NCBI GenBank assembly: GCA_965197905.1
Contig: CBDAOB010000004.1
Coordinates: forward strand, 1,856,001-1,920,000
DNA from: Candidatus Latescibacterota bacterium
GTDB taxonomy: Bacteria; Latescibacterota; UBA2968; UBA8231
Direction of reading: 5' to 3'
Length of the DNA stretch: 64,000 nt
Within the stretch, counting starts at the first letter, position 1. Each line of letters begins with the position of its first letter. Below are positions 51,923-63,906 of this stretch, piece by piece. The position numbers and the translations under genes were made by a program. The notes under the pieces are model-generated. The model searched no databases. It worked only from the letters and a program-made list of their open reading frames with translations, and was not told where the DNA came from.

Positions 51923-52718
51923 CCCCTCCTTGTGGACGCTGCCTGAATACCCGGCAGAATTCTGGCCATGTGCGGTTGTGGCGGTTGTTATGGTCGGGAT
52001 CGCCAAGGCGGGGTTCGGTGGCGGGGTGGGTATCGTGGCAACGCCTTTGATCGCGCTGGCTGTAACAGTGACCGACGCTGCGGCGCTCATGCTTCCATTG
52101 TTGATGGCATGCGATCTGTTTGCCGTGCGACATTATCGCGACAGCTTCGATCGCCGCAGCATCAAGTTGCTTCTTCCCGGTGCCTTTATCGGCGTGGGAG
52201 TCGGAGCATTTTTTTTTGGGTACTTCGCGCACAATCCCCGGGTCCTGGAGGTGGGGCTTGGTTACCTGGCGCTCCTCTTCGTCCTCTTTCACGCCACCCG
52301 GTCGCTCCTTTTCGCCGCCCTTGAGAAACATCGGCCCGCCGCGTTGGAAGGCATCCTGATGGGGGCGATTTCAGGTTTCACCTCCACCCTCGCCCATGCA
52401 GGTGGTCCACCGGCAACCATGTATCTCTTGCCGCAGAAGTTTTCCCGGCATCTGTTCGTCGGTACAACGGTGATCTTTTTTGCCGCTCTCAACATCATTA
52501 AGCTGGTGCCCTACATAGCCCTCGGCTTTATGAGACCGGGGATTCTGCTCACCACCTTGGTTCTTTCCCCTTTGAGTTACATCGGCGTCAAGCTGGGGAT
52601 CTACTTGAACGGTCGTTTCAGCGAGCTCTGGTTTAACAGATTGGTCTACGGGCTCTTGCTACTAACTGGCTTGCAGCTGGTATTAGATACATCCCTGCTG
52701 AGCACGATCCTCCCTTGA
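51915..52718 (+). CDS. TauE/SafE (TSUP) family membrane protein
   Basis: GIAKAGFGGG, SGFTSTLAHAGGPP, KLVPY. Confidence 0.88.
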   Translation: MSSPSLWTLPEYPAEFWPCAVVAVVMVGIAKAGFGGGVGIVATPLIALAVTVTDAAALMLPLLMACDLFAVRHYRDSFDRRSIKLLLPGAFIGVGVGAFFFGYFAHNPRVLEVGLGYLALLFVLFHATRSLLFAALEKHRPAALEGILMGAISGFTSTLAHAGGPPATMYLLPQKFSRHLFVGTTVIFFAALNIIKLVPYIALGFMRPGILLTTLVLSPLSYIGVKLGIYLNGRFSELWFNRLVYGLLLLTGLQLVLDTSLLSTILP

Positions 52719-52738
52719 ATGCTTGAGGGCAACCCAAC

Positions 52739-52767
52739 TTGACAGGATTCGGTGCGGCCGTTAAGTT
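52739..52767 (+). promoter_or_regulatory. Sigma70 promoter of the aromatic amino-acid operon
   Basis: TTGACA (52739-44), 17 nt, TAAGTT (52762-67). Confidence 0.75.
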
Positions 52768-52806
52768 GATCGCGACTTACACGAAAAAGAGATTGAGACT
52801 AGCTTA

Positions 52807-52881
52807 ATGAACCACACAAGTTACAGATATTGGCGCCGCTTCTGGTATACCAGTGAAATTGGAGGTGCGCCTACCTGCTAG
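52807..52881 (+). CDS. Attenuator leader peptide MNHTSYRYWRRFWYTSEIGGAPTC (24 aa)
   Basis: ATG 52807 to TAG 52879-81. Codons 6-14 are TAC AGA TAT TGG CGC CGC TTC TGG TAT. Lies between the promoter and the terminator upstream of trpE. Confidence 0.85.
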   Translation: MNHTSYRYWRRFWYTSEIGGAPTC

Positions 52882-52923
52882 TCTGAATCAGTTGAGTTGA
52901 TGTTGAGAAACCGCGGGCGCACC
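52831..52923 (+). promoter_or_regulatory. Pause (1:2) and antiterminator (2:3) pairings of a transcription attenuator
   Basis: GGCGC (52832-36) pairs with GCGCC (52867-71) around an inner CTGG-TATA-CCAG hairpin. Alternatively GGTGCGCCT (52864-72) pairs with GGGCGCACC (52915-23) in the terminator 5' arm. Confidence 0.75.
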
Positions 52924-52947
52924 AGTTGCGTCCGCGGTTTTCTTTTT
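52906..52947 (+). terminator. Intrinsic attenuator terminator
   Basis: AAACCGCGGGCGCA, CCAGT loop, TGCGTCCGCGGTTT, followed by TCTTTTT. Confidence 0.9.
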
Positions 52948-52996
52948 GGCCCTATGAAATGAGATATCGAGAAGCAGCGCGACCTGGAGACAAACG

Positions 52997-55150
52997 ATGA
53001 GAGAGCGAAGCAACACAATCGAAACCTATACCACCTGCGGAGGGGTCGAGGTAACCCGCCACACCTTGGAGCTTGCGGTCCCGGACGCTTTGGGCGAGGC
53101 GTTGGAGAAGATCAACACTCGTCGCGGTGCCGTATTCGCCAGCGGCTACGAATATCCAGGGCGCTACAGCCGATGGGATATGGCGTTTGTCGATCCGCCG
53201 CTCGAAATCGTGGCCCGACAACGAGAGTTCAGTATCGGGGCGTTGAACGAAAGAGGCACGCGGATACTGAGAATGTTGCGAGGCGCCCTGGAGGGGCTTG
53301 CCCATCTGGATCACCTCGACGCGGGCGCGCGCCGGCTGGAAGGCAGAATCCGGGAAATGCCCAGCTATTTTCCAGAGGAGGAGCGCAGCAAACAGCCGAC
53401 GGTCTTCAGTGTCATGCGATCCCTTGTGCAAACCATGAAATCGACGGTTGATCCCCACCTGGGGTTTTACGGGGCCATGGGCTACGATCTCGTCTTTCAG
53501 TTCGAGCCGATCGAGCTGCGACATATCCGCGATCGGCACCGACCGGACCTGCACCTTTTCCTCCCCGACGAACTGATCGTGATCGACCACCGGAAAGAGC
53601 AGGCCCACTGCTACCAATACGATTTCGCCCAAGAGGGAATCGACACTGCCGGTGTCGAACGCAGCGGCGAAGCGATGCCGCTGACGAAAGGCTCTACGAC
53701 CCCCATAACGAGCGATCACCGACCCGGGGAGTACGCCGAAAAAGTCAAAGAGATCATCGCCGGAACCGAGCGCGGCGACTTCTTCGAGGTAGTCTTGAGT
53801 CAGGTGCTCAGTGCCGGGTATTCAGGTACCCCCAAGGACCTGTTTGAAAACATCCGCGAGCGCAATCCCAGTCCGTACGAGTTCCTGGTCAATCTCGGCG
53901 ACGAGCAGCTGATCGGGGCGTCCCCGGAGATGTTTGTCCGCGTCGAGGGTTCGAAGGTAGAAACCTGCCCCATATCAGGCACAGTTCGACGAGGCGTCAC
54001 GCCGATGCAAGACGCTCAGCGAATCCTGGAGCTGCTCAATTCCGCAAAAGACGAAGCCGAGCTGACGATGTGCACCGACGTTGATCGCAACGACAAATCC
54101 CGGGTTTGTCAACCAGGGTCGGTCCAGGTTGAAGGCAGGCGGCTTATCGAGATTTACTCCCGCTTGATTCACACCGTGGACTACGTCGTTGGCGAACTGA
54201 AGAAGGACTGCGACGGATTCGACGCCTTGCTCTCGCACATGTGGGCTTGCACTCTGACGGGTGCACCCAAACCGGCGGCCATGCAGCGCGTCGAGGATCT
54301 GGAGAACTCGGCACGAGAATGGTACGGGGGCTGCGTCGGCATGGTGCTCTTCAACGGCGACATCAACACCGGGATCACCATTCGCACCGTACACCTGCGC
54401 CAGGGTATCGCTCGAGTGCGTGCTGGTGCGACCCTGTTGTGCGACTCCGATCCGGAAGAGGAGGAGCAGGAGACCCGGACCAAAGCCGAAGCGTTCATCA
54501 ACGCCGTCGTCGGTCAAGATGCGGCGGTCGTGAACCGCGCCTCGCCCGTAGCCGGCATGGGCAACGGGAAACGAGTACTGTTTGTGGATAACCGGGACTC
54601 CTTCGTGCACACCCTTGCCAATTACGTGCGCCAGACCGGTGCTGAAGTGACTACCGTGCGTGCCGGATTTCCCCTCGAGATCATCGCCGAGGTCGACCCC
54701 GGCCTCGTGTTTATCTCGCCAGGGCCGGGGACCCCAAAACAACTGGGGGTGCCGCAGCTGGTGCGGGAATGCTTCGATAGAGAGCTCCCCATGTTTGGAG
54801 TCTGTTTGGGTCTGCAGGGTCTAGTAGAGGGGTTCGGCGGCGAACTAGATGTGCTGTCTTACCCGATGCACGGCAAGACGTCGACGATTCAGTGCGAACC
54901 TAGCGGCATCTTGCGCGGTTTTCCGCCTGAATTCGGCGCCGGCAGATATCATTCGCTATACGCTCGGCAGGACGCCCTGCCCGACTGCTTCAAGATTCTG
55001 GCCAGCACCGAAGACGGCGTCATCATGGCCATCGAGCACCGCGATTATCCAGCGGCTGCGGTGCAGTTTCATCCGGAGTCGATTCTGACCCTGGAAGAGG
55101 ATCTGGGGCTGCGTCTGATAGGGCAAGTGGTGCATCAATTGGCACGATGA
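52997..55150 (+). CDS. trpE: Fused anthranilate synthase TrpE(G)
   Basis: SGYEYPGRY, NPSPY, GASPEMFV, PISGT, ELTMCTDVDRND, TGAPK, then a GATase domain: DSFVHTL, SPGPG, GVCLG, GRYHSL, QFHPES. Confidence 0.93.
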   Translation: MRERSNTIETYTTCGGVEVTRHTLELAVPDALGEALEKINTRRGAVFASGYEYPGRYSRWDMAFVDPPLEIVARQREFSIGALNERGTRILRMLRGALEGLAHLDHLDAGARRLEGRIREMPSYFPEEERSKQPTVFSVMRSLVQTMKSTVDPHLGFYGAMGYDLVFQFEPIELRHIRDRHRPDLHLFLPDELIVIDHRKEQAHCYQYDFAQEGIDTAGVERSGEAMPLTKGSTTPITSDHRPGEYAEKVKEIIAGTERGDFFEVVLSQVLSAGYSGTPKDLFENIRERNPSPYEFLVNLGDEQLIGASPEMFVRVEGSKVETCPISGTVRRGVTPMQDAQRILELLNSAKDEAELTMCTDVDRNDKSRVCQPGSVQVEGRRLIEIYSRLIHTVDYVVGELKKDCDGFDALLSHMWACTLTGAPKPAAMQRVEDLENSAREWYGGCVGMVLFNGDINTGITIRTVHLRQGIARVRAGATLLCDSDPEEEEQETRTKAEAFINAVVGQDAAVVNRASPVAGMGNGKRVLFVDNRDSFVHTLANYVRQTGAEVTTVRAGFPLEIIAEVDPGLVFISPGPGTPKQLGVPQLVRECFDRELPMFGVCLGLQGLVEGFGGELDVLSYPMHGKTSTIQCEPSGILRGFPPEFGAGRYHSLYARQDALPDCFKILASTEDGVIMAIEHRDYPAAAVQFHPESILTLEEDLGLRLIGQVVHQLAR

Positions 55151-55153
55151 GCC

Positions 55154-55720
55154 ATGCTTCTTCTACTTGATAATTACGATTCGTTTACATACAATTTGGC
55201 CCAATATCTGGGAGAACTGGGTAGTGACGTTCGGGTCGTGCGCAGCGATGCCATCCGCCTCGCGGACGTCGATGAACTGGGTCCCGAAAGAATCGTGATT
55301 TCGCCGGGGCCCCGCACCCCGAACGACGCCGGAATCTCGGTGGATGTTGTTCGGCACGTGGCAGGCAGGATTCCTCTCCTGGGCGTTTGTTTGGGACACC
55401 AGGCCATCGGCCAAGCCTTCGGCGGCGACATTTCCCGAGCGCCCGCCATCATGCATGGGAAGACCTCACTCATCCATCACGATGGCAATACCATCTTCCG
55501 CGGCCTCCAAAATCCGCTTACAGCGACGCGGTACCACTCACTGGTCGTGGAGCGCACCACGTTTCCGGACTGTTTGGAGATCTCGGCCGCAACGAAGGAT
55601 GGGGTGATTATGGGGTTGCGCCACCGCTCGTGTCTGCTGGAGGGGGTGCAGTTCCATCCCGAATCGATTTTGACGACCGAAGGCAAGAACCTGCTGAGGA
55701 ACTTCCTCGAGCTGGCGTGA
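55154..55720 (+). CDS. trpG: Anthranilate/aminodeoxychorismate synthase glutamine amidotransferase subunit
   Basis: [34 protein letters not shown]. Could act as PabA. Confidence 0.9.
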
Positions 55721-55736
55721 TCGACAGGAGAAGCGG

Positions 55737-56747
55737 ATGATTCAGGAAAGTATCAGTCAGCTGATTGGCGGCAACGACATTGGTCGCGACAACGCCCGCG
55801 CCGTCATGAATCAGATCATGAGCGGTGAAGCTACCGACGCCCAGATCGGTGCCTTTCTGGCGGCCCTGCGCTGCAAAGGGGAAACCGTCGAGGAGATCAC
55901 CGGTTGTGCCGAGGTGATGCGCGAGAAAGCCACGCGAATTTCGACGACCCGGGAAAAGGTGGTGGATACCTGCGGCACTGGCGGCGATGGCTCCAGCTCC
56001 TTCAATATTTCCACGGCGGTCGCTTTTGTGGTCGCAGGTGCCGGCCTCTGCGTAGCCAAACACGGAAATCGCGCCATGTCCAGCAAATGCGGTTCCGCCG
56101 ACGTGCTCAGCGCACTCGGGGTCAACATAGAAGCCAGCCCCGAGGTGGTCAGCGCCTGCCTGGAAGAAGCCGGCATCGGGTTTCTGTTTGCGCCGATGCT
56201 CCACGGGGCTATGAAACATGCCATAGGTCCGCGCAAAGAGATCGGCACCCGCACCGTATTTAACGTCTTGGGACCGTTGACGAACCCCGCTGGCGCTCAG
56301 CGCCAACTCATCGGCGTCTTCTCCCCCGACCTGACGCCCACGCTGGCGGGAGTGCTCAGAGATCTCGGTTCGGTGCACGCGTTTGTGGTGCATGGCTCCG
56401 ACGGATTGGATGAGATAACCATCACCGGGCCGAGTCAAGTCAGTGAGCTCAAAGACGCCGAGGTGACAACCTATGAGATCGCGCCAGAAGAATTTGGCAT
56501 GGAACGGGCAGCCGCTGCCAGCCTGAAGGGGGGTGACGCGAACCAAAACGCGCAGATTCTCCTGGATATTCTAGACGGTGGCGACGGGCCGCGTCGCGAC
56601 ATTGTGCTCCTCAACGCGGCGGCTGCCATAACGGCCGGCGATGCCGCCGCCGGCCTCGCTGATGGCGTTGAACGTGCTCGAGAATCGCTCGATTCGGGAA
56701 ACGCGAAGGCAGCGCTGGAAAACCTGAAACGAGTCAGCAATCAGTGA
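55737..56747 (+). CDS. trpD: Anthranilate phosphoribosyltransferase
   Basis: DTCGTGGDG, FNIST, KHGNR, GSAD, FNVLGPLTNP, DGLDE. Confidence 0.96.
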   Translation: MIQESISQLIGGNDIGRDNARAVMNQIMSGEATDAQIGAFLAALRCKGETVEEITGCAEVMREKATRISTTREKVVDTCGTGGDGSSSFNISTAVAFVVAGAGLCVAKHGNRAMSSKCGSADVLSALGVNIEASPEVVSACLEEAGIGFLFAPMLHGAMKHAIGPRKEIGTRTVFNVLGPLTNPAGAQRQLIGVFSPDLTPTLAGVLRDLGSVHAFVVHGSDGLDEITITGPSQVSELKDAEVTTYEIAPEEFGMERAAAASLKGGDANQNAQILLDILDGGDGPRRDIVLLNAAAAITAGDAAAGLADGVERARESLDSGNAKAALENLKRVSNQ

Positions 56748-56756
56748 TCGCAGCCA

Positions 56757-57566
56757 ATGGACCCTAGTCTGCCAACCGCCCCTAGAAACGACATTCTCGC
56801 CGAGATCGCGGCGTACAAACGAGAGTTTGTGCTTCAGCGCAAACGCAATCGCACCTTCGACGACATGCGCCGAGCTGCCGACGACGCGGCGCAACCCGAG
56901 GATTTTCGCGCCGCCGTTGCGGCCGGTGGGGTGGCGTTAATTGCAGAGATCAAAAAGGCATCTCCCTCCAAAGGAGTGATTCGCGAGGATTTTGATCCGC
57001 AGAAGATCGCGGCCGAGTACGCTCAGAACGGCGCGACGGCGCTGTCGGTGCTGACGGACGAAGCCTACTTTCAGGGGTGCGATCGCTACCTCCAGCAAGC
57101 CAGAGAGGTAGCTGAGCTGCCGGTGTTGCGCAAAGACTTCACCGTCGATGAGTATCAGATCTACGAAGCGCGGGTGCTGGGTGCGGACGCCATCTTGATC
57201 ATTGTCGCGTTGATGGATGGCGGCCAACTGGGCGATTTTGCGGGGTTGGCCCGCGAACAGGGTTTGACGGCCTTGGTGGAAGTGCACACCAAGGAGGAGC
57301 TCGACCGAGCGTTGGAACAACCGCTTGAATTGGTCGGCATCAACAATCGCGATCTCTCGACCTTCGAAACGAGCTTGGAGACGACGTTCGAGCTGCAAGC
57401 TCACATCCCCGATGGTGTCACGATCGTCAGCGAAAGCGGGATCAACACTCGTGAAGATATCGACCGACTCGAGGCGGCCGGTATCGATGCCGTTCTCGTA
57501 GGCGAATCGCTCATGCGCGAGCGCGACATCGGCGCCAAGGTGAGAGAGCTGTTTTCAGATCGCTAG
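56757..57566 (+). CDS. trpC: Indole-3-glycerol phosphate synthase
   Basis: IAEIKKASPSKG, LSVLTD, LRKDF, GINNRDL, VSESGI. Confidence 0.96.
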   Translation: MDPSLPTAPRNDILAEIAAYKREFVLQRKRNRTFDDMRRAADDAAQPEDFRAAVAAGGVALIAEIKKASPSKGVIREDFDPQKIAAEYAQNGATALSVLTDEAYFQGCDRYLQQAREVAELPVLRKDFTVDEYQIYEARVLGADAILIIVALMDGGQLGDFAGLAREQGLTALVEVHTKEELDRALEQPLELVGINNRDLSTFETSLETTFELQAHIPDGVTIVSESGINTREDIDRLEAAGIDAVLVGESLMRERDIGAKVRELFSDR

Positions 57567-57587: not shown

Positions 57588-58571
57588 ATGAAAAAGCGCG
57601 TATTTTCGGGGATTCAACCCTCCGGTAGTCTGCATATTGGAAACTACCTCGGTGCCATTCGCAACTGGGTCAACGACCAGGAAACGTATGACAATATATT
57701 CTGCGTCGTCGACCAGCATGCGATAACGGTTCCGTATGACCCTTCTAGCTTGAAGCGCAATGTGCGCGAGGTTATCGGACTCTACGTGGCTGCGGGCCTC
57801 GATCCGGAGAAATGTACGTTGTTTGTGCAGTCGCATATTCCCGAACACACGGAGCTGGCCTGGCTGCTTACCTGCACGACACCGATGGGTTGGCTCCAAC
57901 GCATGACCCAGTTCAAGGAGAAGTCGGAGGGCCAGCGTGAGAAGGTGAGCGCCGGCCTCTTTACCTATCCTGCCCTGATGGCGGCGGATATCCTTCTCTA
58001 TCAATCCCACGGTGTGCCGGTCGGGGACGACCAGAAGCAACACGTGGAGTTGGCTCGCGATCTCGCCCAGCGTTTCAATAATCTCTACGGGGAGACGTTT
58101 GTGGTGCCCGAGCCGATCATTCCCAAAATCGGGGCTCGGGTAATGGGTCTTGACGACCCCACCAGCAAGATGTCCAAATCGGCGGAGAGCCAATGGCACC
58201 GGGTCGATCTCCTGGATGAATCCAGCAAGATCAGCAAGAAGTTCGGTCGGGCGGTTACCGACTCTCAAAAGGAGATCGTGTTCGACCCGAAACGCCCAGG
58301 GGTATTCAACCTGCTGACGATCTACCAGGCGATTTCTGGAGAGAACGCGGAGAAGCTCGAAGCGCATTTTTCGGGGAAAGGGTACGGCGATTTGAAGCGC
58401 GAGGTGGCCGACTTGGTCATTGCGACACTGGAACCGATTCAGGGCAGATATCGTGAAATCACCGAGGACCCCGCTTACATTCCAAGGTTGTTGCAACAGA
58501 GCGTGAATCGGCTGCGGCCCCTAGTAAACGACACCATGTCCAGCGTCCGCGACGCTATGGGATTCGGCTGA
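57588..58571 (+). CDS. trpS: Tryptophan--tRNA ligase
   Basis: SGIQPSG, HIGN, YPALMAADIL, VPVGDDQKQH, KMSKS. Confidence 0.96.
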   Translation: MKKRVFSGIQPSGSLHIGNYLGAIRNWVNDQETYDNIFCVVDQHAITVPYDPSSLKRNVREVIGLYVAAGLDPEKCTLFVQSHIPEHTELAWLLTCTTPMGWLQRMTQFKEKSEGQREKVSAGLFTYPALMAADILLYQSHGVPVGDDQKQHVELARDLAQRFNNLYGETFVVPEPIIPKIGARVMGLDDPTSKMSKSAESQWHRVDLLDESSKISKKFGRAVTDSQKEIVFDPKRPGVFNLLTIYQAISGENAEKLEAHFSGKGYGDLKREVADLVIATLEPIQGRYREITEDPAYIPRLLQQSVNRLRPLVNDTMSSVRDAMGFG

Positions 58572-58582
58572 AGGAGGACACA

Positions 58583-58840
58583 ATGGACCTGAGTGACTGG
58601 CGGGCGCGCATCGACACCGTCGATCAACTGTTGGTAGATCTTCTCAATCGACGCATGCGCTATGCGCTTGCGATCGGGGATATCAAACGCCAGCAGGGCC
58701 AGCAAATCTTCGATCCCAAGCGAGAGCAGGAAGTCATCGAAGCAATCAAGGAGTACAACGAGGGTCCCATGACCGGCGGCGCCATTGAGGAGATCTTCGC
58801 GCGCATCATGAAGGAAGCCCGCGAACTGGAAGCACAGTAG
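58583..58840 (+). CDS. Monofunctional chorismate mutase (AroQ type)
   Basis: WRARIDTVD..LV.LLNRR, IGDIK, DPKRE. AGGAGG RBS. Confidence 0.9.
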   Translation: MDLSDWRARIDTVDQLLVDLLNRRMRYALAIGDIKRQQGQQIFDPKREQEVIEAIKEYNEGPMTGGAIEEIFARIMKEARELEAQ

Positions 58841-58848
58841 GAGGGTTT

Positions 58849-59946
58849 GTTTTCTTTAACCGAGTTGTCATAGTCGGTGTTGGGCTGATCGGCGGATCGT
58901 TCGCTCTCGGTCTCAAACGCACCGGTTTTACTGGCACCGTCGTCGGTGTCAGTCGTGGAGAAACGATTGACCGCGCCCTGGAGTTGGGAGCCGTCGACGA
59001 GGGGTGGGGATATGATCAGCTGGATCGCGCGTTGGAAAAGGCCGATCTGGTCGTGGTGTCTACGCCGATTAAGCGGATCCTCGAACTCTTGGAAGAGATC
59101 GCCGCTCACACCCCCCCGGGGGTTCTGGTAACGGATGTGGGCAGCACCAAACGCAAGATTATGGAACGAGCGCAGAGCGTCCTGACGGGGGATCGACACT
59201 TCGTGGGTGGCCACCCGATGGCTGGCTCGGAAAAGGCGGGAGTGATGGCCGCGGATCCATTTCTTTTTCAAAATGCCATTTACATCCTGGTGCCGGCGCC
59301 CGGGGTGCCGACGTCCTTGTACGGGGAATTTTCGCGGTTGTTGAGGCGCCTGGGCGCCCGCGTGTTGGAGTTGAGCGCGGAAGTTCATGACCAGGTGGTA
59401 GCGGCGATCAGCCATCTACCGCAAGTAATGGCGACGTCGCTGGTGAACTTGGTGGGGCGATTGAACGAAGAATCAGGACATTTCACTACGTTGGCGGCCG
59501 GTGGGTTTCGCGACCTCACCCGCATCGCTTCCAGTCCGTTTGCTCCAGTGTGGAGCGATATCTTCGGCACTAACGCCGACGAGATCCGCGCCATGGTCGA
59601 CCGCTATGTAGAGATTCTGGTCGATATTCGTGGGCGCCTCGAAGACGCCGGTCTTGAAAAGGAGTTTACTTACGCCAATGACGTCCGCGCTACCATTCCG
59701 CGAGATGCCAAAGGGTTTCTGCACACCCTCGAGGAGCTTCTTGTGGTAGCAGAGGATAAGCCGGGTGTGATCGCCGAAATCGCCAACGCGCTCGCCAACC
59801 AGGACATCAATATAAATGATATCGAGGTGATGAAGGTTCGGGAGGGTGAGGGCGGAACTCTGCGGCTGGGATTCGAGGGCGCGGATGCGGCCGAGCGCGC
59901 CCTGCGGGTTCTGACAGACCTCGATTACGTGGCGCGCAGACCCTGA
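58849..59946 (+). CDS. tyrA: Prephenate/arogenate dehydrogenase with C-terminal ACT domain; start codon anomalous
   Basis: The frame extends 5' of the track ORF (58984) through RVVIVGVGLIGGS. TDVGSTK, GGHPMAGSE, HD, SHLP, RDLTRIA, and ACT motif DKPGVIA. Confidence 0.88.
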   Translation, partial: VFFNRVVIVGVGLIGGSFALGLKRTGFTGTVVGVSRGETIDRALELGAVDEGWGYDQLDRALEKADLVVVSTPIKRILELLEEIAAHTPPGVLVTDVGSTKRKIMERAQSVLTGDRHFVGGHPMAGSEKAGVMAADPFLFQNAIYILVPAPGVPTSLYGEFSRLLRRLGARVLELSAEVHDQVVAAISHLPQVMATSLVNLVGRLNEESGHFTTLAAGGFRDLTRIASSPFAPVWSDIFGTNADEIRAMVDRYVEILVDIRGRLEDAGLEKEFTYANDVRATIPRDAKGFLHTLEELLVVAEDKPGVIAEIANALANQDININDIEVMKVREGEGGTLRLGFEGADAAERALRVLTDLDYVARRP

Positions 59947-59956
59947 CCGGTAATTC

Positions 59957-61234
59957 ATGAGTGTCCAGCTTAAGCCCGCCGATCGATTGCGCGGCGAGAT
60001 CACGGTGCCCGGAGAGGTCGGCACGGCCGCCCGCACCCTCCTGATCGCCAGCTTGTCCCCCGGTGAAAGCCGTGTGGGCAACGTGCCGCCGCAGGTGGCG
60101 TCCCTCTGCGATTGTCTGCGATCGTTGGGGGTTGAGATCCGTCAAAACAACGGCGAAATGCTGGTATCGGGCCGGGAGGTGGGAGGCCTTGAACCCACGT
60201 CTGCAGTCCTGGACCTGACGGGGGTGGGCACTGCGCTGCCGATCGCGTTGGCGATGCTGGCGGGACAGGCATTCACCAGCCGTGTCCGCCTGGGGGACCG
60301 GATGGCGTTGGCCCGAGAGTTCCTCAAGATGCTCATGCCAATGGGGGTCTCATGGCACTCTATCAGCGATGATCTGATCGAGCTGGGTGGCCAGCCGCTC
60401 AACGGGTGTGAACTCTCTGTCTCCGATCTGGGGATGGAGGAGAAGCTGGCCATCATGGTGGCCGCGCTCCACGCCGCCGGAACCAGTTTGTTGCCGGAAA
60501 ACGCGAGTCAGCGGGAGGGAGCCGTTCAGGCGTTGCGGCAGCGCGGCGTAGTGGTAGAGCGGCAAAAACTGGGGAGCGGATCGTCGTATCAGATCCGCGT
60601 CGAAGGGGGGCAGCCGGTGCAGCCGGAGATCGTCGAGCTGGCCGGAGATCTGCAACTGACTTCGGCATTCCTGGCGCTCGCATTGAGCTTGAACAGATCG
60701 GAGATAACTATTCGCAACGTCGAGGTTCGCGCCGGGCGCCGGTCGTTCTTCGATCTCATGCGCCAGCTAGGAGGTCCGGTCGAACTGGTGAACGAGGAAG
60801 ACGGGAACCATCGTTTGGAAGCCCGATCCGGATCGTTGAAAGCGACCCGAATCGCGGGCAAGCGCGTGGAGAAGTTGCTGGACGAGCTGCCGCTGGTGGC
60901 GGTGGTGGCCACGCAGGCGAAAGGCGAGTTTGTCATTCGCGACATCGAACGTCTTCGCCAGGATCCGCCGGATCGCGTCGCCCACCTCGTAGAGCAGCTG
61001 CGAGCCATGGATGCCAAGGTCGGCGAGTTTCCCGAGGGCATCGTTATCCAAGGCGGCTACCCGTTGCGCGGGGCGCGCATCGATTGCGCCAACGATCCGG
61101 CGCTGGCGCAGGCCTTTGCTGCCGCCGGACTACTGGCCGAAGACGAAAGCGAATTGGAAGGGACCAAGGCGTTGGAGAATCTGAATCCCAAGTTTTTCGA
61201 AACCCTCGCGTCAATAACGGAGGAAAAGAAATGA
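59957..61234 (+). CDS. EPSP synthase (AroA)-fold protein with degenerate active site
   Basis: LRGEITVPG, GD, LDELP, DR and P.FF scaffold retained. The canonical KS...R, GNxGT, SSQ/SAQ, KE and DHR motifs are absent. Confidence 0.8.
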   Translation: MSVQLKPADRLRGEITVPGEVGTAARTLLIASLSPGESRVGNVPPQVASLCDCLRSLGVEIRQNNGEMLVSGREVGGLEPTSAVLDLTGVGTALPIALAMLAGQAFTSRVRLGDRMALAREFLKMLMPMGVSWHSISDDLIELGGQPLNGCELSVSDLGMEEKLAIMVAALHAAGTSLLPENASQREGAVQALRQRGVVVERQKLGSGSSYQIRVEGGQPVQPEIVELAGDLQLTSAFLALALSLNRSEITIRNVEVRAGRRSFFDLMRQLGGPVELVNEEDGNHRLEARSGSLKATRIAGKRVEKLLDELPLVAVVATQAKGEFVIRDIERLRQDPPDRVAHLVEQLRAMDAKVGEFPEGIVIQGGYPLRGARIDCANDPALAQAFAAAGLLAEDESELEGTKALENLNPKFFETLASITEEKK

Positions 61235-61371
61235 GAGGTCTACTGCGGTTGTTCGTTCTGCTCGCCGTCATGTTCTGCGGCGGCATCGTACTGATTCGAT
61301 TGCTCTACGACGTTTCGTGGAGTGAGAGTGTGGAAATCGCGGACCAATTCGTCGAGGATCTCTTCGGTTGA
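61231..61371 (+). CDS. Small membrane protein (46 aa)
   Basis: MRGLLRLFVLLAVMFCGGIVLIRLLYDVSWSESVEIADQFVEDLFG. GGAGG RBS, ATGA overlap with the upstream stop and TTGA overlap with the aroE start. Confidence 0.75.
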   Translation: MRGLLRLFVLLAVMFCGGIVLIRLLYDVSWSESVEIADQFVEDLFG

Positions 61372-62225
61372 TATCAGGTCGGACCCGGGTTCTGGGCGTC
61401 ATCGGCGATCCGATAGATCACACCCTGTCGCCGGCTATGCACAACGCCGCGTTACAGGTGCTTGAGTTCGATTGCGTATATCTACCGTTTCACGTCTGCC
61501 CCGCTGGGTTGGGCGAGGCGATCGCCGGCATCCGCGCCCTCGACCTGCTCGGCCTCAACGTCACGGTACCTCACAAACAAGCGGTCATGGACCACCTGGA
61601 CGAGATTGCCGATGAGGCGACCGCCATTGGCGCCGTGAACACCATCGCTCTCACCGACGGTATCCTCACAGGGCACAACACCGACGCTTTTGGCATCCTG
61701 GAGAATCTGCGTTCGGAGGGGGGCCTCGAAACCCTGCCGTCCAGGGTCGTGTTGCTGGGTGCGGGAGGAGCCGGCCGCGCCATCCTCTACGCGTTGCTGC
61801 AGCAAACGGAAGTGCGGGAGATTCTGCTGCTCAACCGAACCGGGGCGAAGGCGGAGTCGCTGGCAAGAGATCTGGATCCGGCTGGGAACCGAGTAAAGGT
61901 GGGATCCCTGGACCAGGATCATGCTGAACAGATCCGCGCTTCCGGATTGCTGATCAACTCCACCGCGGCGGGCATGTTCCCGCAGGCGGAAGTTTCCCCC
62001 CTCGCGGACGGCCGCGGTCTGCACCGCGACATACTGGTTGTGGATATCGTCTACAAACCGCAACGAACCGTGCTTATGGCGCAGGCAGGGAAGGAAGGGG
62101 CGCGCGCCCTCAACGGTCTGGGGATGCTCGCCCATCAGGGAGCACGGTCGTTCTCGATCTGGACCGGTCAGACCCCCCCCGTCGACACCATGATGGAGGC
62201 GGCGCTTGCGTTCATTCAAGGCTGA
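61368..62225 (+). CDS. aroE: Shikimate dehydrogenase
   Basis: GDPIDHTLSPAMHN, NVTVPHK, GAVNT, NTD, GAGGAGRA, DIVYKP, GLGML. Confidence 0.94.
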   Translation: MISGRTRVLGVIGDPIDHTLSPAMHNAALQVLEFDCVYLPFHVCPAGLGEAIAGIRALDLLGLNVTVPHKQAVMDHLDEIADEATAIGAVNTIALTDGILTGHNTDAFGILENLRSEGGLETLPSRVVLLGAGGAGRAILYALLQQTEVREILLLNRTGAKAESLARDLDPAGNRVKVGSLDQDHAEQIRASGLLINSTAAGMFPQAEVSPLADGRGLHRDILVVDIVYKPQRTVLMAQAGKEGARALNGLGMLAHQGARSFSIWTGQTPPVDTMMEAALAFIQG

Positions 62226-63906
62226 GGTCGTCCACAGGCTTCTCGAGCTGGTGGAGCTACCCGAAGAGGAGATAGTTGACCTGGTCGCCGCGCCCCCGAA
62301 GGAAGAGATGGGGGACTTCGCCTTTCCCTGCTTCACCCTCGCCAAGACCCTGCGCAAAAAACCGGTAGAGATCGCTTCCGACCTGGCCGCCAGGCTGCAA
62401 CCGGGGAGCGGCATCGAACGGATCGTATCGATCGGTCCCTACGTGAACTTCTGGCTGGAAAGGACGGCGTTCATCGCGCGCACGCTGCAACAGGTCATGG
62501 ATCAGGGCGAGCGCTTTGGCAGTGAAGACCAGGGTCGCGGCAAGACGGTGGTCATCGACTACTCGTCGCCGAACCTGGCCAAACAGTTCAGCATTGCCCA
62601 TCTGCGTTCCACCGCTATCGGCAACGCCATCTACCGCATCCACGCGTTCCTGGGTTGGCGCTGCGTCGGCGTCAATCACCTCGGTGATTGGGGCGGCAAC
62701 TTTGGACAGTTGCTTGCCGCCTACCGCAAATGGGCCGATCCACAGACTGTCAAAGCAAATCCTCTACCGGAGTTCCAGGCCCTTTATGCCCGCTTCAACC
62801 AGGAGCTGGAAACGAACGCAGACCTCAAGGAGGAAGCGCGTCAATGCGCCCGCGAGCTCGAAGCCAACGACCCGGAGACGGAGTCTCTGTGGAGTTTCTT
62901 CGTGGAGGAGAGCCGCAAAGAAGCGGATCGCATCTACGCCATGCTCGACGTGCGATTCGACGAATCGCTGGGAGAGAGTTTTTTTGCGGCGAAGCTCGAA
63001 GAGGTGGTCGAGATGTTCGAAGCAGCCGGCCTGGCGCGAGAGAGCGAAGGAGCGCTCATCGTCGATCTGGAGGAGTTCGACATGCCTCCTTGTATCCTGC
63101 GCACCAGCAGAGGTACCAGCACCTACCACAGCCGCGACTTGGCGGCGATGCTCCATCGTCGCCGGCAATACGATTTCGATCGCATGGTCTATGTTACCGA
63201 CTCGCGGCAGTCGTTGCATTTTCGCCAGTTGTTCAAAGCGGTTGAGCTTCTCGGCGAAGGCTGGTTCGCTCGCTGCGAGCACGCTCCGTTTGGCTTGCTG
63301 AGTTTCAAGGGTGCCAAGATGTCTACCCGAGCGGGGCACGTCATTTTTCTCGAGCGGGTCCTCGACGAGGCGATCGAGCTGACCTCGTCCATCGTAGCCG
63401 CCAAGAACCCAGACCTGAAATCTCGGGACCAGATCGCCCGGCAGGTGGGCATCAGCGCCATCATCTTCGCCGACCTCGATTCCCGGCGGACCCGCGATAT
63501 CGTTTTCGATTGGGAGGAGGCGTTGAACTTCGACGGCGAAACGGGTCCCTATCTGCAGTACACCCACGCCCGTTTCTGCAGCATACTGAGGCGTTACGGG
63601 AAGGCTGTTGGGTCGCAGACAAATCTCGAGAAGTTGGGTGCCGAGGCGGAGATGAGAGTTGCCCGGCAGCTGGCACAGTTCCCGGATACGGTTGCTCGCG
63701 CCTGCGGTGAGAATGAGCCTTCTCTGGTGGCGACCTTCCTGCTGGAACTGGCTACCGTCTCCAACAAGCTCTACAATGAACTGCCGGTGTTGAACCATGA
63801 GGATCAAGATCTGGTGGCAGCACGGATCATCTTGGTGGATTGCATGCGTACGGTTCTGCGGACCGGGCTGGGACTGCTCGGCATGAGCGCACCGGAAGAG
63901 ATGTAG
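62206..63906 (+). CDS. argS: Arginine--tRNA ligase
   Basis: GDFAFPCF, DYSSPN, HIGH-equivalent SIAHLRS, NHLGDWG, KMSTR, GETGPYLQY.HAR, C-terminal PEEM. Confidence 0.95.
   Translation: MRSFKAEVVHRLLELVELPEEEIVDLVAAPPKEEMGDFAFPCFTLAKTLRKKPVEIASDLAARLQPGSGIERIVSIGPYVNFWLERTAFIARTLQQVMDQGERFGSEDQGRGKTVVIDYSSPNLAKQFSIAHLRSTAIGNAIYRIHAFLGWRCVGVNHLGDWGGNFGQLLAAYRKWADPQTVKANPLPEFQALYARFNQELETNADLKEEARQCARELEANDPETESLWSFFVEESRKEADRIYAMLDVRFDESLGESFFAAKLEEVVEMFEAAGLARESEGALIVDLEEFDMPPCILRTSRGTSTYHSRDLAAMLHRRRQYDFDRMVYVTDSRQSLHFRQLFKAVELLGEGWFARCEHAPFGLLSFKGAKMSTRAGHVIFLERVLDEAIELTSSIVAAKNPDLKSRDQIARQVGISAIIFADLDSRRTRDIVFDWEEALNFDGETGPYLQYTHARFCSILRRYGKAVGSQTNLEKLGAEAEMRVARQLAQFPDTVARACGENEPSLVATFLLELATVSNKLYNELPVLNHEDQDLVAARIILVDCMRTVLRTGLGLLGMSAPEEM

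What the first reader, a model, noticed from the sequence alone, without database searches (positions are those of the whole stretch)
52739..52996. Unannotated attenuator whose leader peptide could sense Trp, Tyr and Phe together
Seen: a promoter, then a 24-codon uORF with control window Y-R-Y-W-R-R-F-W-Y (3 Tyr, 2 non-adjacent Trp, 1 Phe). A 1:2 hairpin lies over those codons, a 9-bp antiterminator pairs 52864-72 with 52915-23, and a strong U-tailed terminator ends ~50 nt before trpE. The geometry fits classical attenuation: stalling at codons 6-14 frees segment 2, while reaching the stop at 52879 masks it. Known: trp leaders normally use tandem Trp codons, and multivalent leaders are established for ilv and thr operons. 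Inference: a multivalent aromatic attenuator matched to an operon spanning Trp, Phe/Tyr and common shikimate genes. I do not know of a described example.
Basis: partly seen in the sequence, partly recalled or inferred. Interest (0 to 1): 0.88.

Follow-up and report, generated by a model that had tools for sequence, protein, structure and literature searches.

The report
Trp-dominated aromatic attenuator before trpE
A small upstream mini-gene rich in tryptophan codons, flanked by tyrosine codons and followed by a switchable stop signal, very probably lets ribosome speed control a ten-gene tryptophan/tyrosine/shikimate operon: a textbook mechanism in an uncatalogued, mixed-codon form.

Summary
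A 24-codon uORF (52807-52881), a 1:2 hairpin, a 9-bp antiterminator (52864-72 with 52915-23) and a U-tailed terminator (52907-52946) lie before a fused trpE(G) that heads trpG-trpD-trpC-trpS-CM-tyrA-aroA-aroE-argS.

A covariance model built from the element hits 74 of 76 genomes of the family. In the 70 leaders analysed it always sits just upstream of trpE. All three helices are conserved. The leader stop lies 1-21 nt after segment 2 in 69 of 69 leaders.

The "Trp+Tyr+Phe" reading is only partly supported:
- **Trp:** universal, with at least 2 codons in 69 of 70 leaders.
- **Tyr:** enriched (9.4% of control-window codons, against 0.5% elsewhere in the leaders and 2.3% in proteins), frame-specific, and present in 18 of 18 genera.
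- **Phe:** not enriched (3.1% against 4.0%). It is Asp in a same-genus relative, and pheA lies elsewhere.

Sister families carry Tyr/Phe-rich leaders and have tyrS in the operon. This family has trpS instead, and its tyrS has its own Tyr-run leader.

Verdict: a real classical attenuator that senses mainly Trp, probably with a Tyr input and without a Phe input. It is absent from Rfam. This scan has noted similar leaders on other DNA. Everything rests on sequence comparison; nothing was tested experimentally.

The parts
52739..52767 (+). Putative sigma-70-type promoter: -35 TTGACA (52739-44), 17-nt spacer, -10 TAAGTT (52762-67). Predicted transcription start near 52774-52775.
   Evidence: Sequence. 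The consensus scan found none at its threshold. TTGACA at the same place in 16 of 16 orthologous loci.
52807..52881 (+). Leader ORF, 24 codons plus TAG: MNHTSYRYWRRFWYTSEIGGAPTC.
   Evidence: A homologous ORF is present in 70 of the 72 loci examined.
52822..52848 (+). Control codons 6-14: Tyr-Arg-Tyr-Trp-Arg-Arg-Phe-Trp-Tyr. Trp codons at 52831-33 and 52843-45; Tyr at 52822-24, 52828-30 and 52846-48; Phe at 52840-42.
   Evidence: family statistics; stall model.
52832..52846 (+). Segment 1, the 5' arm of the 1:2 anti-antiterminator hairpin. It overlaps Trp9-Arg-Arg-Phe-Trp13.
   Evidence: MFE pairs. The family helix is 85.8% paired on A1 and 94.1% on A4.
52858..52872 (+). Segment 2. 52858-71 pairs with segment 1; 52864-72 pairs with segment 3 as the antiterminator. 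It lies inside the leader ORF (codons 18-22).
   Evidence: The 2:3 helix is 91.2% paired on A1, and its 6-pair core is 99.2% paired on A4 against 30-56% when slid.
52907..52946 (+). Intrinsic terminator (segments 3 and 4): stem 52907-52941, with the T-run ending at 52946. Segment 3, which also forms the antiterminator, is 52915-52923.
   Evidence: Covariation: 5 of 14 pairs change on both sides on A1, and 5 of 13 on A4.
52791..52889 (+). Outer stem enclosing the whole leader ORF: 52791-52803 (just 5' of the ATG) pairs with 52877-52889 (over the stop codon). It is specific to this genus.
   Evidence: MFE. The duplex is stronger than shuffles (mean z below -2) only in genus g1, 1 of 18 genera.
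52997..55150 (+). trpE(G), fused anthranilate synthase, 717 aa. First gene under the attenuator.
   Evidence: Pfam Chorismate_bind plus GATase. NCBIfam PRK13566, 1010 bits, and TrpE-clade3.
55154..57566 (+). trpG (55154-55720), trpD (55737-56747) and trpC (56757-57566).
   Evidence: Pfam.
57588..58571 (+). trpS, tryptophan-tRNA ligase. It is the only copy found in this genome.
   Evidence: TIGR00233, 371 bits against a cut-off of 176.75. One match in the own genome.
58583..63906 (+). Chorismate mutase (58583-58840), prephenate dehydrogenase with ACT domain, tyrA (58984-59946 as called; the Rossmann motif lies upstream of that start), aroA (59957-61234), aroE (61368-62225) and argS (62206-63906).
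   Evidence: Pfam. Synteny kept in 22 of 23 family genomes examined. tyrA N-terminus.

Best explanation
This is a ribosome-mediated (leader-peptide) transcription attenuator. It controls a ten-gene supraoperon: trpE(G)-trpG-trpD-trpC-trpS-CM-tyrA-aroA-aroE-argS.

**How it works (inferred from sequence).** RNA polymerase starts near 52775 and transcribes the leader.
- If the ribosome reads the 24-codon uORF without delay, it runs through segment 2 and stops at 52879. Segment 2 is then covered, the terminator 52907-52946 forms, and transcription ends before trpE(G).
- If charged tRNA-Trp is scarce, the ribosome stalls on the Trp codons. This keeps segment 1 covered and leaves segment 2 free.
- Segment 2 (52864-72) then pairs with segment 3 (52915-23) before segment 4 is made. 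The terminator cannot form and the operon is transcribed.

**What it senses.** Trp is the main signal. The three Tyr codons beside the Trp codons sit in the same stall window and probably add a weaker Tyr input, which fits tyrA and chorismate mutase being in the operon. The single Phe codon is not a conserved input.

**Shown here:** the sequence parts, the conservation of all three alternative helices, the placement of the stop codon, and the codon statistics.

**Inferred only:** that the uORF is translated, that termination occurs at this site, and that read-through responds to any amino acid.
For: **Anatomy.** All parts are present.

**Family-wide conservation.**
- Model R1 hits 74 of 76 family genomes at E <= 0.001, and 70 of them at 43 bits or more.
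- Outside the family there are only hits of 34 bits or less, in 7 of 56 genomes. The one I checked by coordinates (G029) is not at trpE.
- All 70 analysed leaders lie directly upstream of trpE. This holds for both types of trpE: 69 confirmed (51 fused, 18 unfused) and the last one.

**Helices.**
- Terminator: 92.3% of cells paired against 35-50% when slid, and 5 pairs changed on both sides. The same pattern holds on 66 distinct sequences.
- Antiterminator: 91.2% paired against 30-58% when slid. Its core is 99.2% paired against 30-56%.
- One position is constrained three ways. On A1 the segment-3 base pairs with segment 2 as UA 9, UG 4, CG 3, and with segment 4 as AU 9, GC 4, GU 3.
- Helix 1:2: 85.8% paired against 35-61% when slid.

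**Signs that the uORF is read.**
- The in-frame stop lies 1-21 nt (median 6) after the segment-2 core in 69 of 69 leaders. This holds even though segment 2 is read in all three frames relative to the Trp codons (42, 16 and 11 leaders).
- No in-frame stop precedes the end of segment 2 (0 of 69). In the other two frames this happens in 27 of 138 cases.

**Trp.** At least 2 Trp codons in 69 of 70 leaders and tandem Trp-Trp in 59 of 70. Trp makes up 23.8% of control-window codons against 0.8% in proteins.

**Tyr.**
- 9.4% of 840 control-window codons, against 0.5% of 1020 codons elsewhere in the same uORFs and 2.3% in 14 window proteins.
- Present in 61 of 70 leaders and in 18 of 18 genera, with hot spots at -1, +5 and +6 from the first Trp.
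- TAY occurs 23.9 times (genus-weighted) in the leader frame, against 0.2 and 5.4 in the other frames.
- Only 46% of Tyr-codon bases are paired in the fold, against 75% of Trp-codon bases.
- TAT is preferred in leaders (14.6 to 9.3), although the window's genes prefer TAC (80 to 42).

**Stall model.** P(2:3) is 0.00 without a ribosome, 0.35-0.96 with the A site on codons 7-15, and 0.00 from codon 16 on.

**Comparative logic.**
- Sister families carry tyrS in the operon in 6 of 7 genomes examined, and their leaders hold 4-6 Tyr codons.
- This family carries trpS in 22 of 23 genomes and has Trp-dominated leaders.

[quoted passage not shown] Trp and Tyr are the two rarest of the residues tallied here.
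Against: **No experimental evidence.** The only RNA-labelled runs are assembled contigs, which cannot show 3' ends.

**Weak ribosome-binding signal.** A purine-rich 4-mer lies 4-18 nt before the chosen start in only 22 of 70 leaders.

**Limited covariation.**
- Helix 1:2 shows no compensatory change on the independent alignment A1.
- The antiterminator's covariation score is reached by 56 of 500 shuffles on A1.
- So these two helices rest on conservation and on the slid-partner controls, not on covariation.

**The equilibrium stall model is crude.**
- For stalls on codons 5-6 it gives P(2:3) of only 0.01-0.04. On Trp9 it gives only 0.27-0.46.
- For stalls on codons 1-3 it gives 0.97-1.00, which the simple picture does not predict.

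**Against a Tyr input.**
- The Tyr codons are single and non-tandem.
- 9 of 70 leaders have none.
- In the one studied mixed leader (C. glutamicum aroR), Tyr availability had no effect, according to a review passage.
- This family has a separate Tyr-run leader in front of tyrS.
- The Tyr codons could be a leftover from a Tyr-rich ancestor.
Confidence: 0.55

Rival explanations
1. A Trp-only attenuator. The mechanism is the same, but only the Trp codons matter. The Tyr, Phe and Arg codons are passengers: remnants of a Tyr/Phe-rich ancestral leader, or by-products of the G+C-rich segment 1.
For: - Trp is the only residue besides Arg found in 70 of 70 control windows.
- The Arg codon after the Trp codons lies in the 1:2 helix.
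- Nine leaders have no Tyr.
- Sister families have Tyr/Phe-rich leaders sharing W-R-R-F with the window, so the aromatic flanks may be inherited.
- tyrS has its own Tyr-run leader in this family.
- Tyr availability did not affect the aroR-controlled operon in C. glutamicum (review passage).
Against: - The rest of the leader peptide has diverged freely, yet Tyr stays beside the Trp codons in 18 of 18 genera, at varying positions (-1, +5, +6).
- Tyr is 9.4% of control-window codons against 0.5% elsewhere in the same ORFs.
- TAY is strongly frame-specific, and the Tyr codons are mostly outside the conserved helices. A neutral remnant would be expected to decay.
Confidence: 0.3
2. One reading: a trivalent attenuator that senses Trp, Tyr and Phe together, matched to an operon serving all three.
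For: - Phe12 lies in the best-placed part of the stall window: P(2:3) is 0.62 at Phe12, 0.58 at Trp13 and 0.59 at Tyr14.
- Phe recurs at this position, +3 from the first Trp, in about 6 of 18 genera after genus weighting, and is present in members of 12 of 18 genera.
- Sister-family leaders have 2-5 Phe codons.
- Chorismate mutase, aroA and aroE also feed Phe synthesis.
Against: - Phe is not enriched: 3.1% in the control window, 3.0% outside it and 4.0% in proteins. The binomial tail is 0.38.
- Phe is absent from 45 of 70 leaders. It is Asp in the same-genus relative L003/L067.
- The operon has no Phe-specific enzyme.
- The only PDT gene lies about 850 kb away, about 20 nt behind a thyA-like gene, with no leader.
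- A single codon of a common amino acid is expected to be a weak sensor (abstract of PMC1183508).
Confidence: 0.1
3. Not ribosome-mediated. The conserved hairpins respond to a protein, a tRNA or a small ligand (T-box-like, TRAP-like or riboswitch-like), and the uORF is incidental. Alternatively, the released leader RNA or peptide acts mainly in trans, as rnTrpL and peTrpL do in Sinorhizobium.
For: - The Shine-Dalgarno signal is weak (22 of 70).
- Attenuator-derived trans-acting RNA and peptide exist before the alpha-proteobacterial trpE(G) (abstracts of PMC6614838 and PMC7298713, seen in the listing).
Against: - No Rfam family, T-box included, matches at E <= 10.
- The ORF, its Trp codons, and its stop just past segment 2 are kept in all three reading registers. 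An RNA that is not translated would not need this.
- A trans role would be an addition to attenuation, not a replacement for it.
Confidence: 0.04

Closest known systems
Enterobacterial trp operon leader, trpL (Rfam Trp_leader RF00513; Yanofsky model, recalled)
   Same: A short uORF with Trp codons followed by an Arg codon, three alternative helices (1:2, 2:3, 3:4), and an intrinsic terminator before trpE.
   Different: - No similarity to any Rfam model.
- Segment 2 lies inside the uORF and the stop comes after it. In E. coli, as I recall, the stop lies between segments 1 and 2.
- The Trp codons are not adjacent in this genus.
- Conserved Tyr codons flank the Trp codons.
- The operon also holds trpS, CM, tyrA, aroA, aroE and argS, and lacks trpF, trpB and trpA.
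Alpha-proteobacterial trpL before fused trpE(G) (Sinorhizobium rnTrpL/peTrpL; abstracts in the listing)
   Same: A leader-peptide attenuator in front of a fused TrpE-clade3 anthranilate synthase. A MAG labelled Pleomorphomonas, with 50% identical TrpE(G), has the leader MSEFVVLTSSWWWRAS.
   Different: - There the gene stands alone and the leader has three adjacent Trp codons and no Tyr. Here it is a ten-gene operon with a mixed leader.
- In this family the same leader precedes both the fused trpE (11 genera) and the unfused trpE (7 genera). The leader therefore did not simply arrive together with the fused gene.
Corynebacterium glutamicum aroR leader before aroF (Neshat et al. 2014, known to me only through a passage of the review PMC11802643)
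   Same: A leader peptide that mixes aromatic codons (Phe-Tyr-Phe) and controls a shikimate-pathway operon by ribosome stalling.
   Different: - It has no Trp codons and stands before aroF, not trpE.
- It was reported to respond to Phe limitation and not to Tyr.
- No sequence relationship was tested.
Tyr/Phe/Trp-rich leaders before trpE in sister families of the same class
   Same: - The same position, promoter type and architecture, with segment 2 inside the uORF imitating the 3' arm of the terminator.
- The motif W-R-R-F is shared with the window.
- The operons share trpE-G-D-C, CM, tyrA, aroA and aroE.
   Different: - Their leaders hold 4-6 Tyr, 2-5 Phe and 1-2 Trp codons.
- Their operons hold tyrS (6 of 7 genomes), trpF, trpB, trpA and a DAHP synthase.
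- Model R1 does not find them.
Multivalent attenuators of the thr and ilv operons (recalled textbook knowledge)
   Same: One leader carries codons for more than one amino acid made by, or linked to, the operon.
   Different: Those leaders hold runs of many regulatory codons. Here there are 2 Trp and 3 scattered Tyr codons, and no response to a second amino acid has been shown.

Membership tests
Leader-peptide (ribosome-mediated) transcription attenuator | A short uORF whose codons are enriched for the amino acid made by the operon | tested here: met
   24-codon uORF with 2 Trp codons. At least 2 Trp in 69 of 70 family leaders; Trp is 23.8% of control-window codons against 0.8% background.
Leader-peptide (ribosome-mediated) transcription attenuator | An intrinsic terminator between the uORF and the first structural gene | tested here: met
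   Stem 52907-52941 plus T-run. 92.3% paired, with 5 pairs changed on both sides. Confirmed on 66 distinct sequences.
Leader-peptide (ribosome-mediated) transcription attenuator | An antiterminator helix (2:3) that excludes the terminator | tested here: met
   9 bp, 52864-72 with 52915-23. 91.2% paired against 30-58% when slid. The core is 99.2% paired. Covariation alone is not significant: 56 of 500 shuffles reach the score.
Leader-peptide (ribosome-mediated) transcription attenuator | A helix 1:2 that overlaps the regulatory codons and excludes 2:3 | tested here: met
   MFE hairpin 52832-46 with 52858-71. The family helix is 85.8% paired against 35-61% when slid, with no compensatory change on A1. 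It is 94.1% paired on the model-fitted alignment A4.
Leader-peptide (ribosome-mediated) transcription attenuator | The uORF is translated | not testable with these tools
   Indirect evidence only. The stop lies 1-21 nt after segment 2 in 69 of 69 leaders, across three reading registers. The Shine-Dalgarno-like signal is weak (22 of 70).
Leader-peptide (ribosome-mediated) transcription attenuator | Read-through rises when the cognate charged tRNA is scarce | not testable with these tools
   The organism is uncultured and no raw RNA reads were on hand.
Rfam Trp_leader (RF00513) and every other Rfam family | A match to the family's covariance model | tested here: not met
   No match at E <= 10 on the leader.
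   Tyr is 9.4% against 0.5% and 2.3%, and occurs in 18 of 18 genera. It is frame-specific. tyrA and CM are in the operon.
   Phe is 3.1% against 3.0% and 4.0%, and occurs in 25 of 70 leaders. None of the 10 operon proteins has a PDT domain. The only PDT gene lies elsewhere.

The most novel reading that the evidence does not exclude
The leader's codon make-up is tuned to the genes it controls, and it was re-partitioned during evolution.

- An ancestral pan-aromatic leader (Trp, Tyr and Phe codons, as still seen in the sister families) governed a trp-tyrS-aro-tyrA operon.
- In this family trpS took the place of tyrS in the operon.
- The leader then shifted to Trp while keeping Tyr codons for tyrA.
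- The displaced tyrS acquired, or kept, its own Tyr-run attenuator.

On this reading the window's leader is a genuine multi-input sensor: Trp for the trp genes and the cell's only trpS, Tyr for tyrA and CM, and possibly Arg. Arg makes up 23.7% of control-window codons, and argS is the last gene of the operon.
Probability: 0.2. Interest if true: 0.7.

Novelty: new variant of a known kind. Interest (0 to 1): 0.45.

Why it matters
- **A new lineage for a textbook mechanism.** It would extend classical attenuation to an uncultured, apparently sponge- and seawater-associated lineage. The closest public record is titled Candidatus Latescibacterota, but other close MAG titles disagree.
- **An uncatalogued RNA family.** It adds a well-supported RNA family that is absent from Rfam.
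- **An essential gene under the same switch.** The cell's only tryptophanyl-tRNA synthetase gene is placed under the same Trp-sensing switch as Trp synthesis.
- **A natural series for comparison.** Leader codon content changes together with the synthetase gene in the operon: tyrS with Tyr runs, trpS with Trp runs. There is also a second, Tyr-specific leader at the displaced tyrS.
- **Testability.** This series allows a test of how many codons, and in which positions, make an attenuator respond to a second amino acid. So far that question has been treated mainly by modelling (abstract of PMC1183508).
- **Annotation.** Gene callers miss the uORF, so genome annotations omit the regulatory element.

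Tried and rejected
- **Rfam.** A scan at E <= 10 gave nothing on the leader.
- **Promoter scan.** The consensus scan found 0 sites. The promoter therefore rests on conservation only.
- **Public genome contigs.** The search for related loci gave only 10 loci. Their organism titles contradict each other (Latescibacterota, Gemmatimonadaceae, Planctomycetaceae), so I do not rely on a taxon name.
- **Tyr codons against tyrA presence.** I meant to test whether Tyr codons track the presence of tyrA in the operon. This was impossible because tyrA is present in every family locus that reaches that far.
- **RNA evidence.** 23 runs were listed and only one is on record as RNA. All are kept as contigs.
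  - In the RNA run X20, a contig covers only 52703-52779.
  - In X21, whose RNA label is a guess, a 203-nt contig of the sister strain covers 52779-52947 and runs on for 33 nt.
  - Contigs cannot show starts or ends, so none of this counts as evidence.
- **Outer stem.** The stem that pairs the uORF start with its stop is stronger than shuffles in 1 of 18 genera only. It is not part of the conserved mechanism.
- **Shine-Dalgarno search.** Weak: 22 of 70 leaders.
- **Equilibrium stall model.** Informative only in outline.
- **Model R1 in the rest of the class.** Only hits of 34 bits or less, in 7 of 56 genomes.
- **Literature.** Five full-text searches found no description of a Trp+Tyr leader before trpE, nor of this lineage's attenuator. 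Subscription journals are outside that library. Vitreschak 2004 and Neshat 2014 were not read.
- **Leaders dropped before the counts.**
  - G043 (L123): no intact ORF, and the sequence contains N.
  - G046 (L124): the hit is a terminator behind an unrelated ORF.
  - G056: the hit lies at a contig end and was not fetched.
  - G049: 29.8-bit hit, not fetched.
  - G053 and G059: no hit; these genomes are 75% and 87% complete.
Full report
**What is in the window.**

- A TTGACA (52739-44), a 17-nt spacer and TAAGTT (52762-67).
- A 24-codon uORF from ATG 52807 to TAG 52879-81, MNHTSYRYWRRFWYTSEIGGAPTC.
- A hairpin pairing 52832-46 with 52858-71.
- A 9-bp complement between 52864-72 and 52915-23.
- A terminator stem 52907-41 with a T-run to 52946, 51 nt before the next gene.

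The leader folds far better than shuffles (-62.3 kcal/mol, z = -4.0, 0 of 200). The promoter scan reported nothing at its threshold. Rfam has no match on the leader at E <= 10.

**The genes behind it.**

Ten genes follow on the same strand with short gaps:
- fused anthranilate synthase trpE(G), NCBIfam PRK13566 and TrpE-clade3;
- a separate trpG, then trpD and trpC;
- a tryptophan-tRNA ligase, TIGR00233 at 371 bits against a cut-off of 176.75;
- a small chorismate mutase;
- prephenate dehydrogenase with an ACT domain (tyrA);
- aroA, aroE and argS.

The operon has no prephenate dehydratase. The genome's only PDT gene lies about 850 kb away, about 20 nt behind a thyA-like gene, with no leader. 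The trpS in this operon is the only one found in the genome (the genome is 91% complete).

**Conservation of the element.**

Sixteen relatives in the same family have a full-length fused TrpE(G) at 64-100% identity. All 16 have TTGACA at the same place, a Trp-containing uORF and a terminator upstream.

On an ordinary MAFFT alignment of these 16 (A1):
- the terminator is 92.3% paired, against 35-50% when the partner is slid, with 5 of 14 pairs changed on both sides and 0 of 500 shuffles reaching the covariation score;
- the antiterminator is 91.2% paired, against 30-58%;
- helix 1:2 is 85.8% paired, against 35-61%, but shows no compensatory change.

One segment-3 base is constrained by both of its partners. 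With segment 2 it forms UA 9, UG 4, CG 3. With segment 4 it forms AU 9, GC 4, GU 3.

A covariance model (R1) hits 74 of 76 genomes of the family, 70 of them at 43 bits or more. In the 56 other genomes of the class it gives only hits of 34 bits or less, in 7 genomes. The one I checked by coordinates (G029) is not at trpE.

On 66 distinct sequences:
- the terminator again shows 5 pairs changed on both sides, for example CG 40 and AU 25 at one pair;
- helix 1:2 is 94.1% paired on this model-fitted alignment;
- the antiterminator core, which was not part of the model, is 99.2% paired against 30-56% when slid.

All 70 leaders I analysed lie directly upstream of trpE: 69 were confirmed and the last. 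Of the 69, 51 precede the fused type and 18 an ordinary unfused trpE. The leader is therefore older than the gene replacement.

**Signs that the uORF is read.**

The peptide outside the core is free to vary, and segment 2 is read in all three registers relative to the Trp codons (42, 16 and 11 leaders). Even so, the uORF never stops before the end of segment 2 (0 of 69), and it always stops 1-21 nt after it (median 6). The other two frames stop early in 27 of 138 cases, and their median first stop lies 76 nt beyond segment 2.

This is what a mechanism needs if the ribosome must run over segment 2 to allow termination. Against it, a Shine-Dalgarno-like signal is found in only 22 of 70 leaders.

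**Which codons are conserved.**

I defined a 12-codon window from 4 codons before to 7 codons after the first aligned Trp. This definition is independent of Tyr and Phe. I weighted the counts by genus: 70 leaders in 18 genera.

| Residue | Control window | Rest of the uORFs | 14 window proteins | Leaders with at least one |
|---|---|---|---|---|
| Trp | 23.8% | 0.6% | 0.8% | 70 of 70 |
| Arg | 23.7% | 13.5% | 7.5% | 70 of 70 |
| Tyr | 9.4% | 0.5% | 2.3% | 61 of 70 |
| Phe | 3.1% | 3.0% | 4.0% | 25 of 70 |

- **Trp.** At least 2 codons in 69 of 70 leaders, and tandem Trp-Trp in 59 of 70.
- **Tyr.** Present in 18 of 18 genera. With one random representative per genus, about 17 of 18 genera have Tyr, where 24% would be expected by chance. 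The hot spots are at -1, +5 and +6. TAY occurs 23.9 times in the leader frame, against 0.2 and 5.4 in the other frames. Tyr-codon bases are paired less often than Trp-codon bases (46% against 75%). The less-used TAT is preferred.
- **Phe.** It is concentrated at one position (+3) in about a third of the genera. It is Asp in the same-genus relative and Ser, Ala, Thr or Cys elsewhere.

**Comparison with the sister families.**

In three sister families of the same class the operon reads trpE-trpG-trpD-trpC-trpF-tyrS-(HMGL-like)-trpB-trpA-CM-DAHPS-tyrA-aroA-aroE. A tyrosine-tRNA ligase is present in 6 of 7 genomes examined.

Their leaders are Tyr/Phe-rich:
- MNAFATYFWYFWRRFDGRYYYYRRPSKSVVCPAF;
- MSSNRASFFESSRFYYYWRFYGGDCPSR;
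- a GTG-started VTDHGRNGFPWRGYFYRSYRWYYREV...

The one genome without a synthetase gene in the operon has ...FFDYFRAYWW...

In the window's family the operon has trpS instead (22 of 23 genomes; G020 lacks it). It also lacks trpF, trpB, trpA and the DAHP synthase.

The family's tyrS sits elsewhere. In this genome it is preceded by its own small ORF with a Tyr run, MNMTLKSYYYRLEKQYGG, and a terminator whose 5' arm can pair with the end of that ORF. A crude scan found Tyr-rich small ORFs in the 260 nt before tyrS in 13 of 19 family genomes; 12 look convincing, and most are followed by a terminator-like site.

The window's Y-W-R-R-F-W-Y shares W-R-R-F with the sister leaders. The simplest history is a pan-aromatic ancestral leader that became Trp-centred when trpS replaced tyrS. 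This contrast rests on about four lineages. I tested that here on my own loci.

**Mechanism.**

An equilibrium model with a 30-nt ribosome footprint gives the following:
- **No ribosome:** helix 1:2 plus the terminator, and P(2:3) = 0.00.
- **A site on codons 7-11:** P(2:3) = 0.35-0.49.
- **A site on codons 12-14 (Phe, Trp, Tyr):** 0.58-0.62.
- **Codon 15:** 0.96.
- **Codon 16 onward:** 0.00, because segment 2 is covered.

The model is crude. It gives 0.01-0.04 for codons 5-6 and 0.97-1.00 for codons 1-3. The reason for the latter is that masking the genus-specific outer stem (52791-803 with 52877-889) loosens helix 1:2. That stem is not conserved: it is stronger than shuffles in 1 of 18 genera.

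The outline fits classical attenuation. The second Trp codon and its neighbours are the best-placed stall sites.

**Comparison with what is known.**

The mechanism is that of the textbook trp leader. It is not a member of any Rfam family.

Mixed leaders are known for the thr and ilv operons (recalled). For aromatic amino acids there is C. glutamicum aroR (Phe-Tyr-Phe, before aroF). In that case Tyr availability had no effect, according to a review passage (PMC11802643). I did not see the primary paper.

Five literature searches found no description of a Trp+Tyr leader before trpE, or of this lineage's attenuator. This scan has already noted related Tyr-rich leaders on other genomes.

**Verdict.**

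- **The attenuator is real** (about 0.9) and family-wide, and it senses mainly Trp.
- **A secondary Tyr input** is roughly even odds, slightly in favour.
- **A Phe input** is unlikely (about 0.1).
- **Novelty:** a new variant of a known kind, of moderate interest.
- **What is missing:** no experiment or raw RNA data supports termination, translation or any amino-acid response.

Noticed in passing
Own genome G000:C5, just upstream of tyrS (tyrS at 293814-295052, minus strand); locus L140 about 2760-2900, minus strand: tyrS has its own candidate attenuator: a small ORF MNMTLKSYYYRLEKQYGG with a Tyr-Tyr-Tyr run. Its last codons (CGGGGG) imitate the 3' arm of a following CCCCCGA...TCGGGGG-T8 terminator. 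A crude scan found Tyr-rich small ORFs in the 260 nt before tyrS in 13 of 19 family genomes; 12 look convincing, and most have a terminator-like site.
   Followed up: partly
window 52997-55720; loci L132-L139: The same leader precedes a fused TrpE(G) of the 'clade 3' type in 11 genera and an ordinary unfused TrpE in 7 genera. trpE was therefore swapped behind a resident attenuator. The fused forms keep a separate trpG right after them, which is redundant on paper.
   Followed up: partly
window 52825-52839 and 62206-63906: Arg codons make up 23.7% of control-window codons (7.5% in proteins), and argS is the last gene of the conserved cluster. At least the Arg codon after the Trp codons lies in the 1:2 helix, so this may be structural. 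An Arg input is not excluded.
   Followed up: partly
window 52791-52803 with 52877-52889: A 12-bp stem pairs the region just before the uORF start with the region over its stop codon, enclosing the whole uORF. It is found only in this genus, 1 of 18 genera. It might shut off repeated translation of the leader.
   Followed up: yes
window 58841-58990: The NAD-binding motif of tyrA (..VVIVGVGLIGGS..) lies in frame upstream of the first ATG, GTG or TTG that the ORF list used (58984). There is no canonical start between the chorismate mutase stop and that motif, and an AGGAGG lies at the end of the chorismate mutase gene. A non-canonical start, perhaps ATA, seems likely. A relative shows the same layout.
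   Followed up: no
L043 (G020), L045 (G004), L125, L130: The operon is interrupted or altered in some relatives. G020 lacks trpS between trpC and CM. G004 has about 1.8 kb inserted between trpE(G) and trpG. Sister-family operons carry inserted genes with DNA-methylase/HSDR_N, PIN, Uma2 and DUF3226 domains between the biosynthetic genes.
   Followed up: no
L122, L123, L124 (genus g15: G044, G043, G046) and G049: In part of one genus the leader looks decayed or replaced: a single Trp codon in G044, no intact uORF in G043 (the sequence holds N), and only weak or spurious model hits in G046 and G049.
   Followed up: no
L126 7683-8660, L125, L131: An HMGL-like gene (325 aa) sits between tyrS and trpB in the sister-family trp operons. 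Its role there is unexplained.
   Followed up: no
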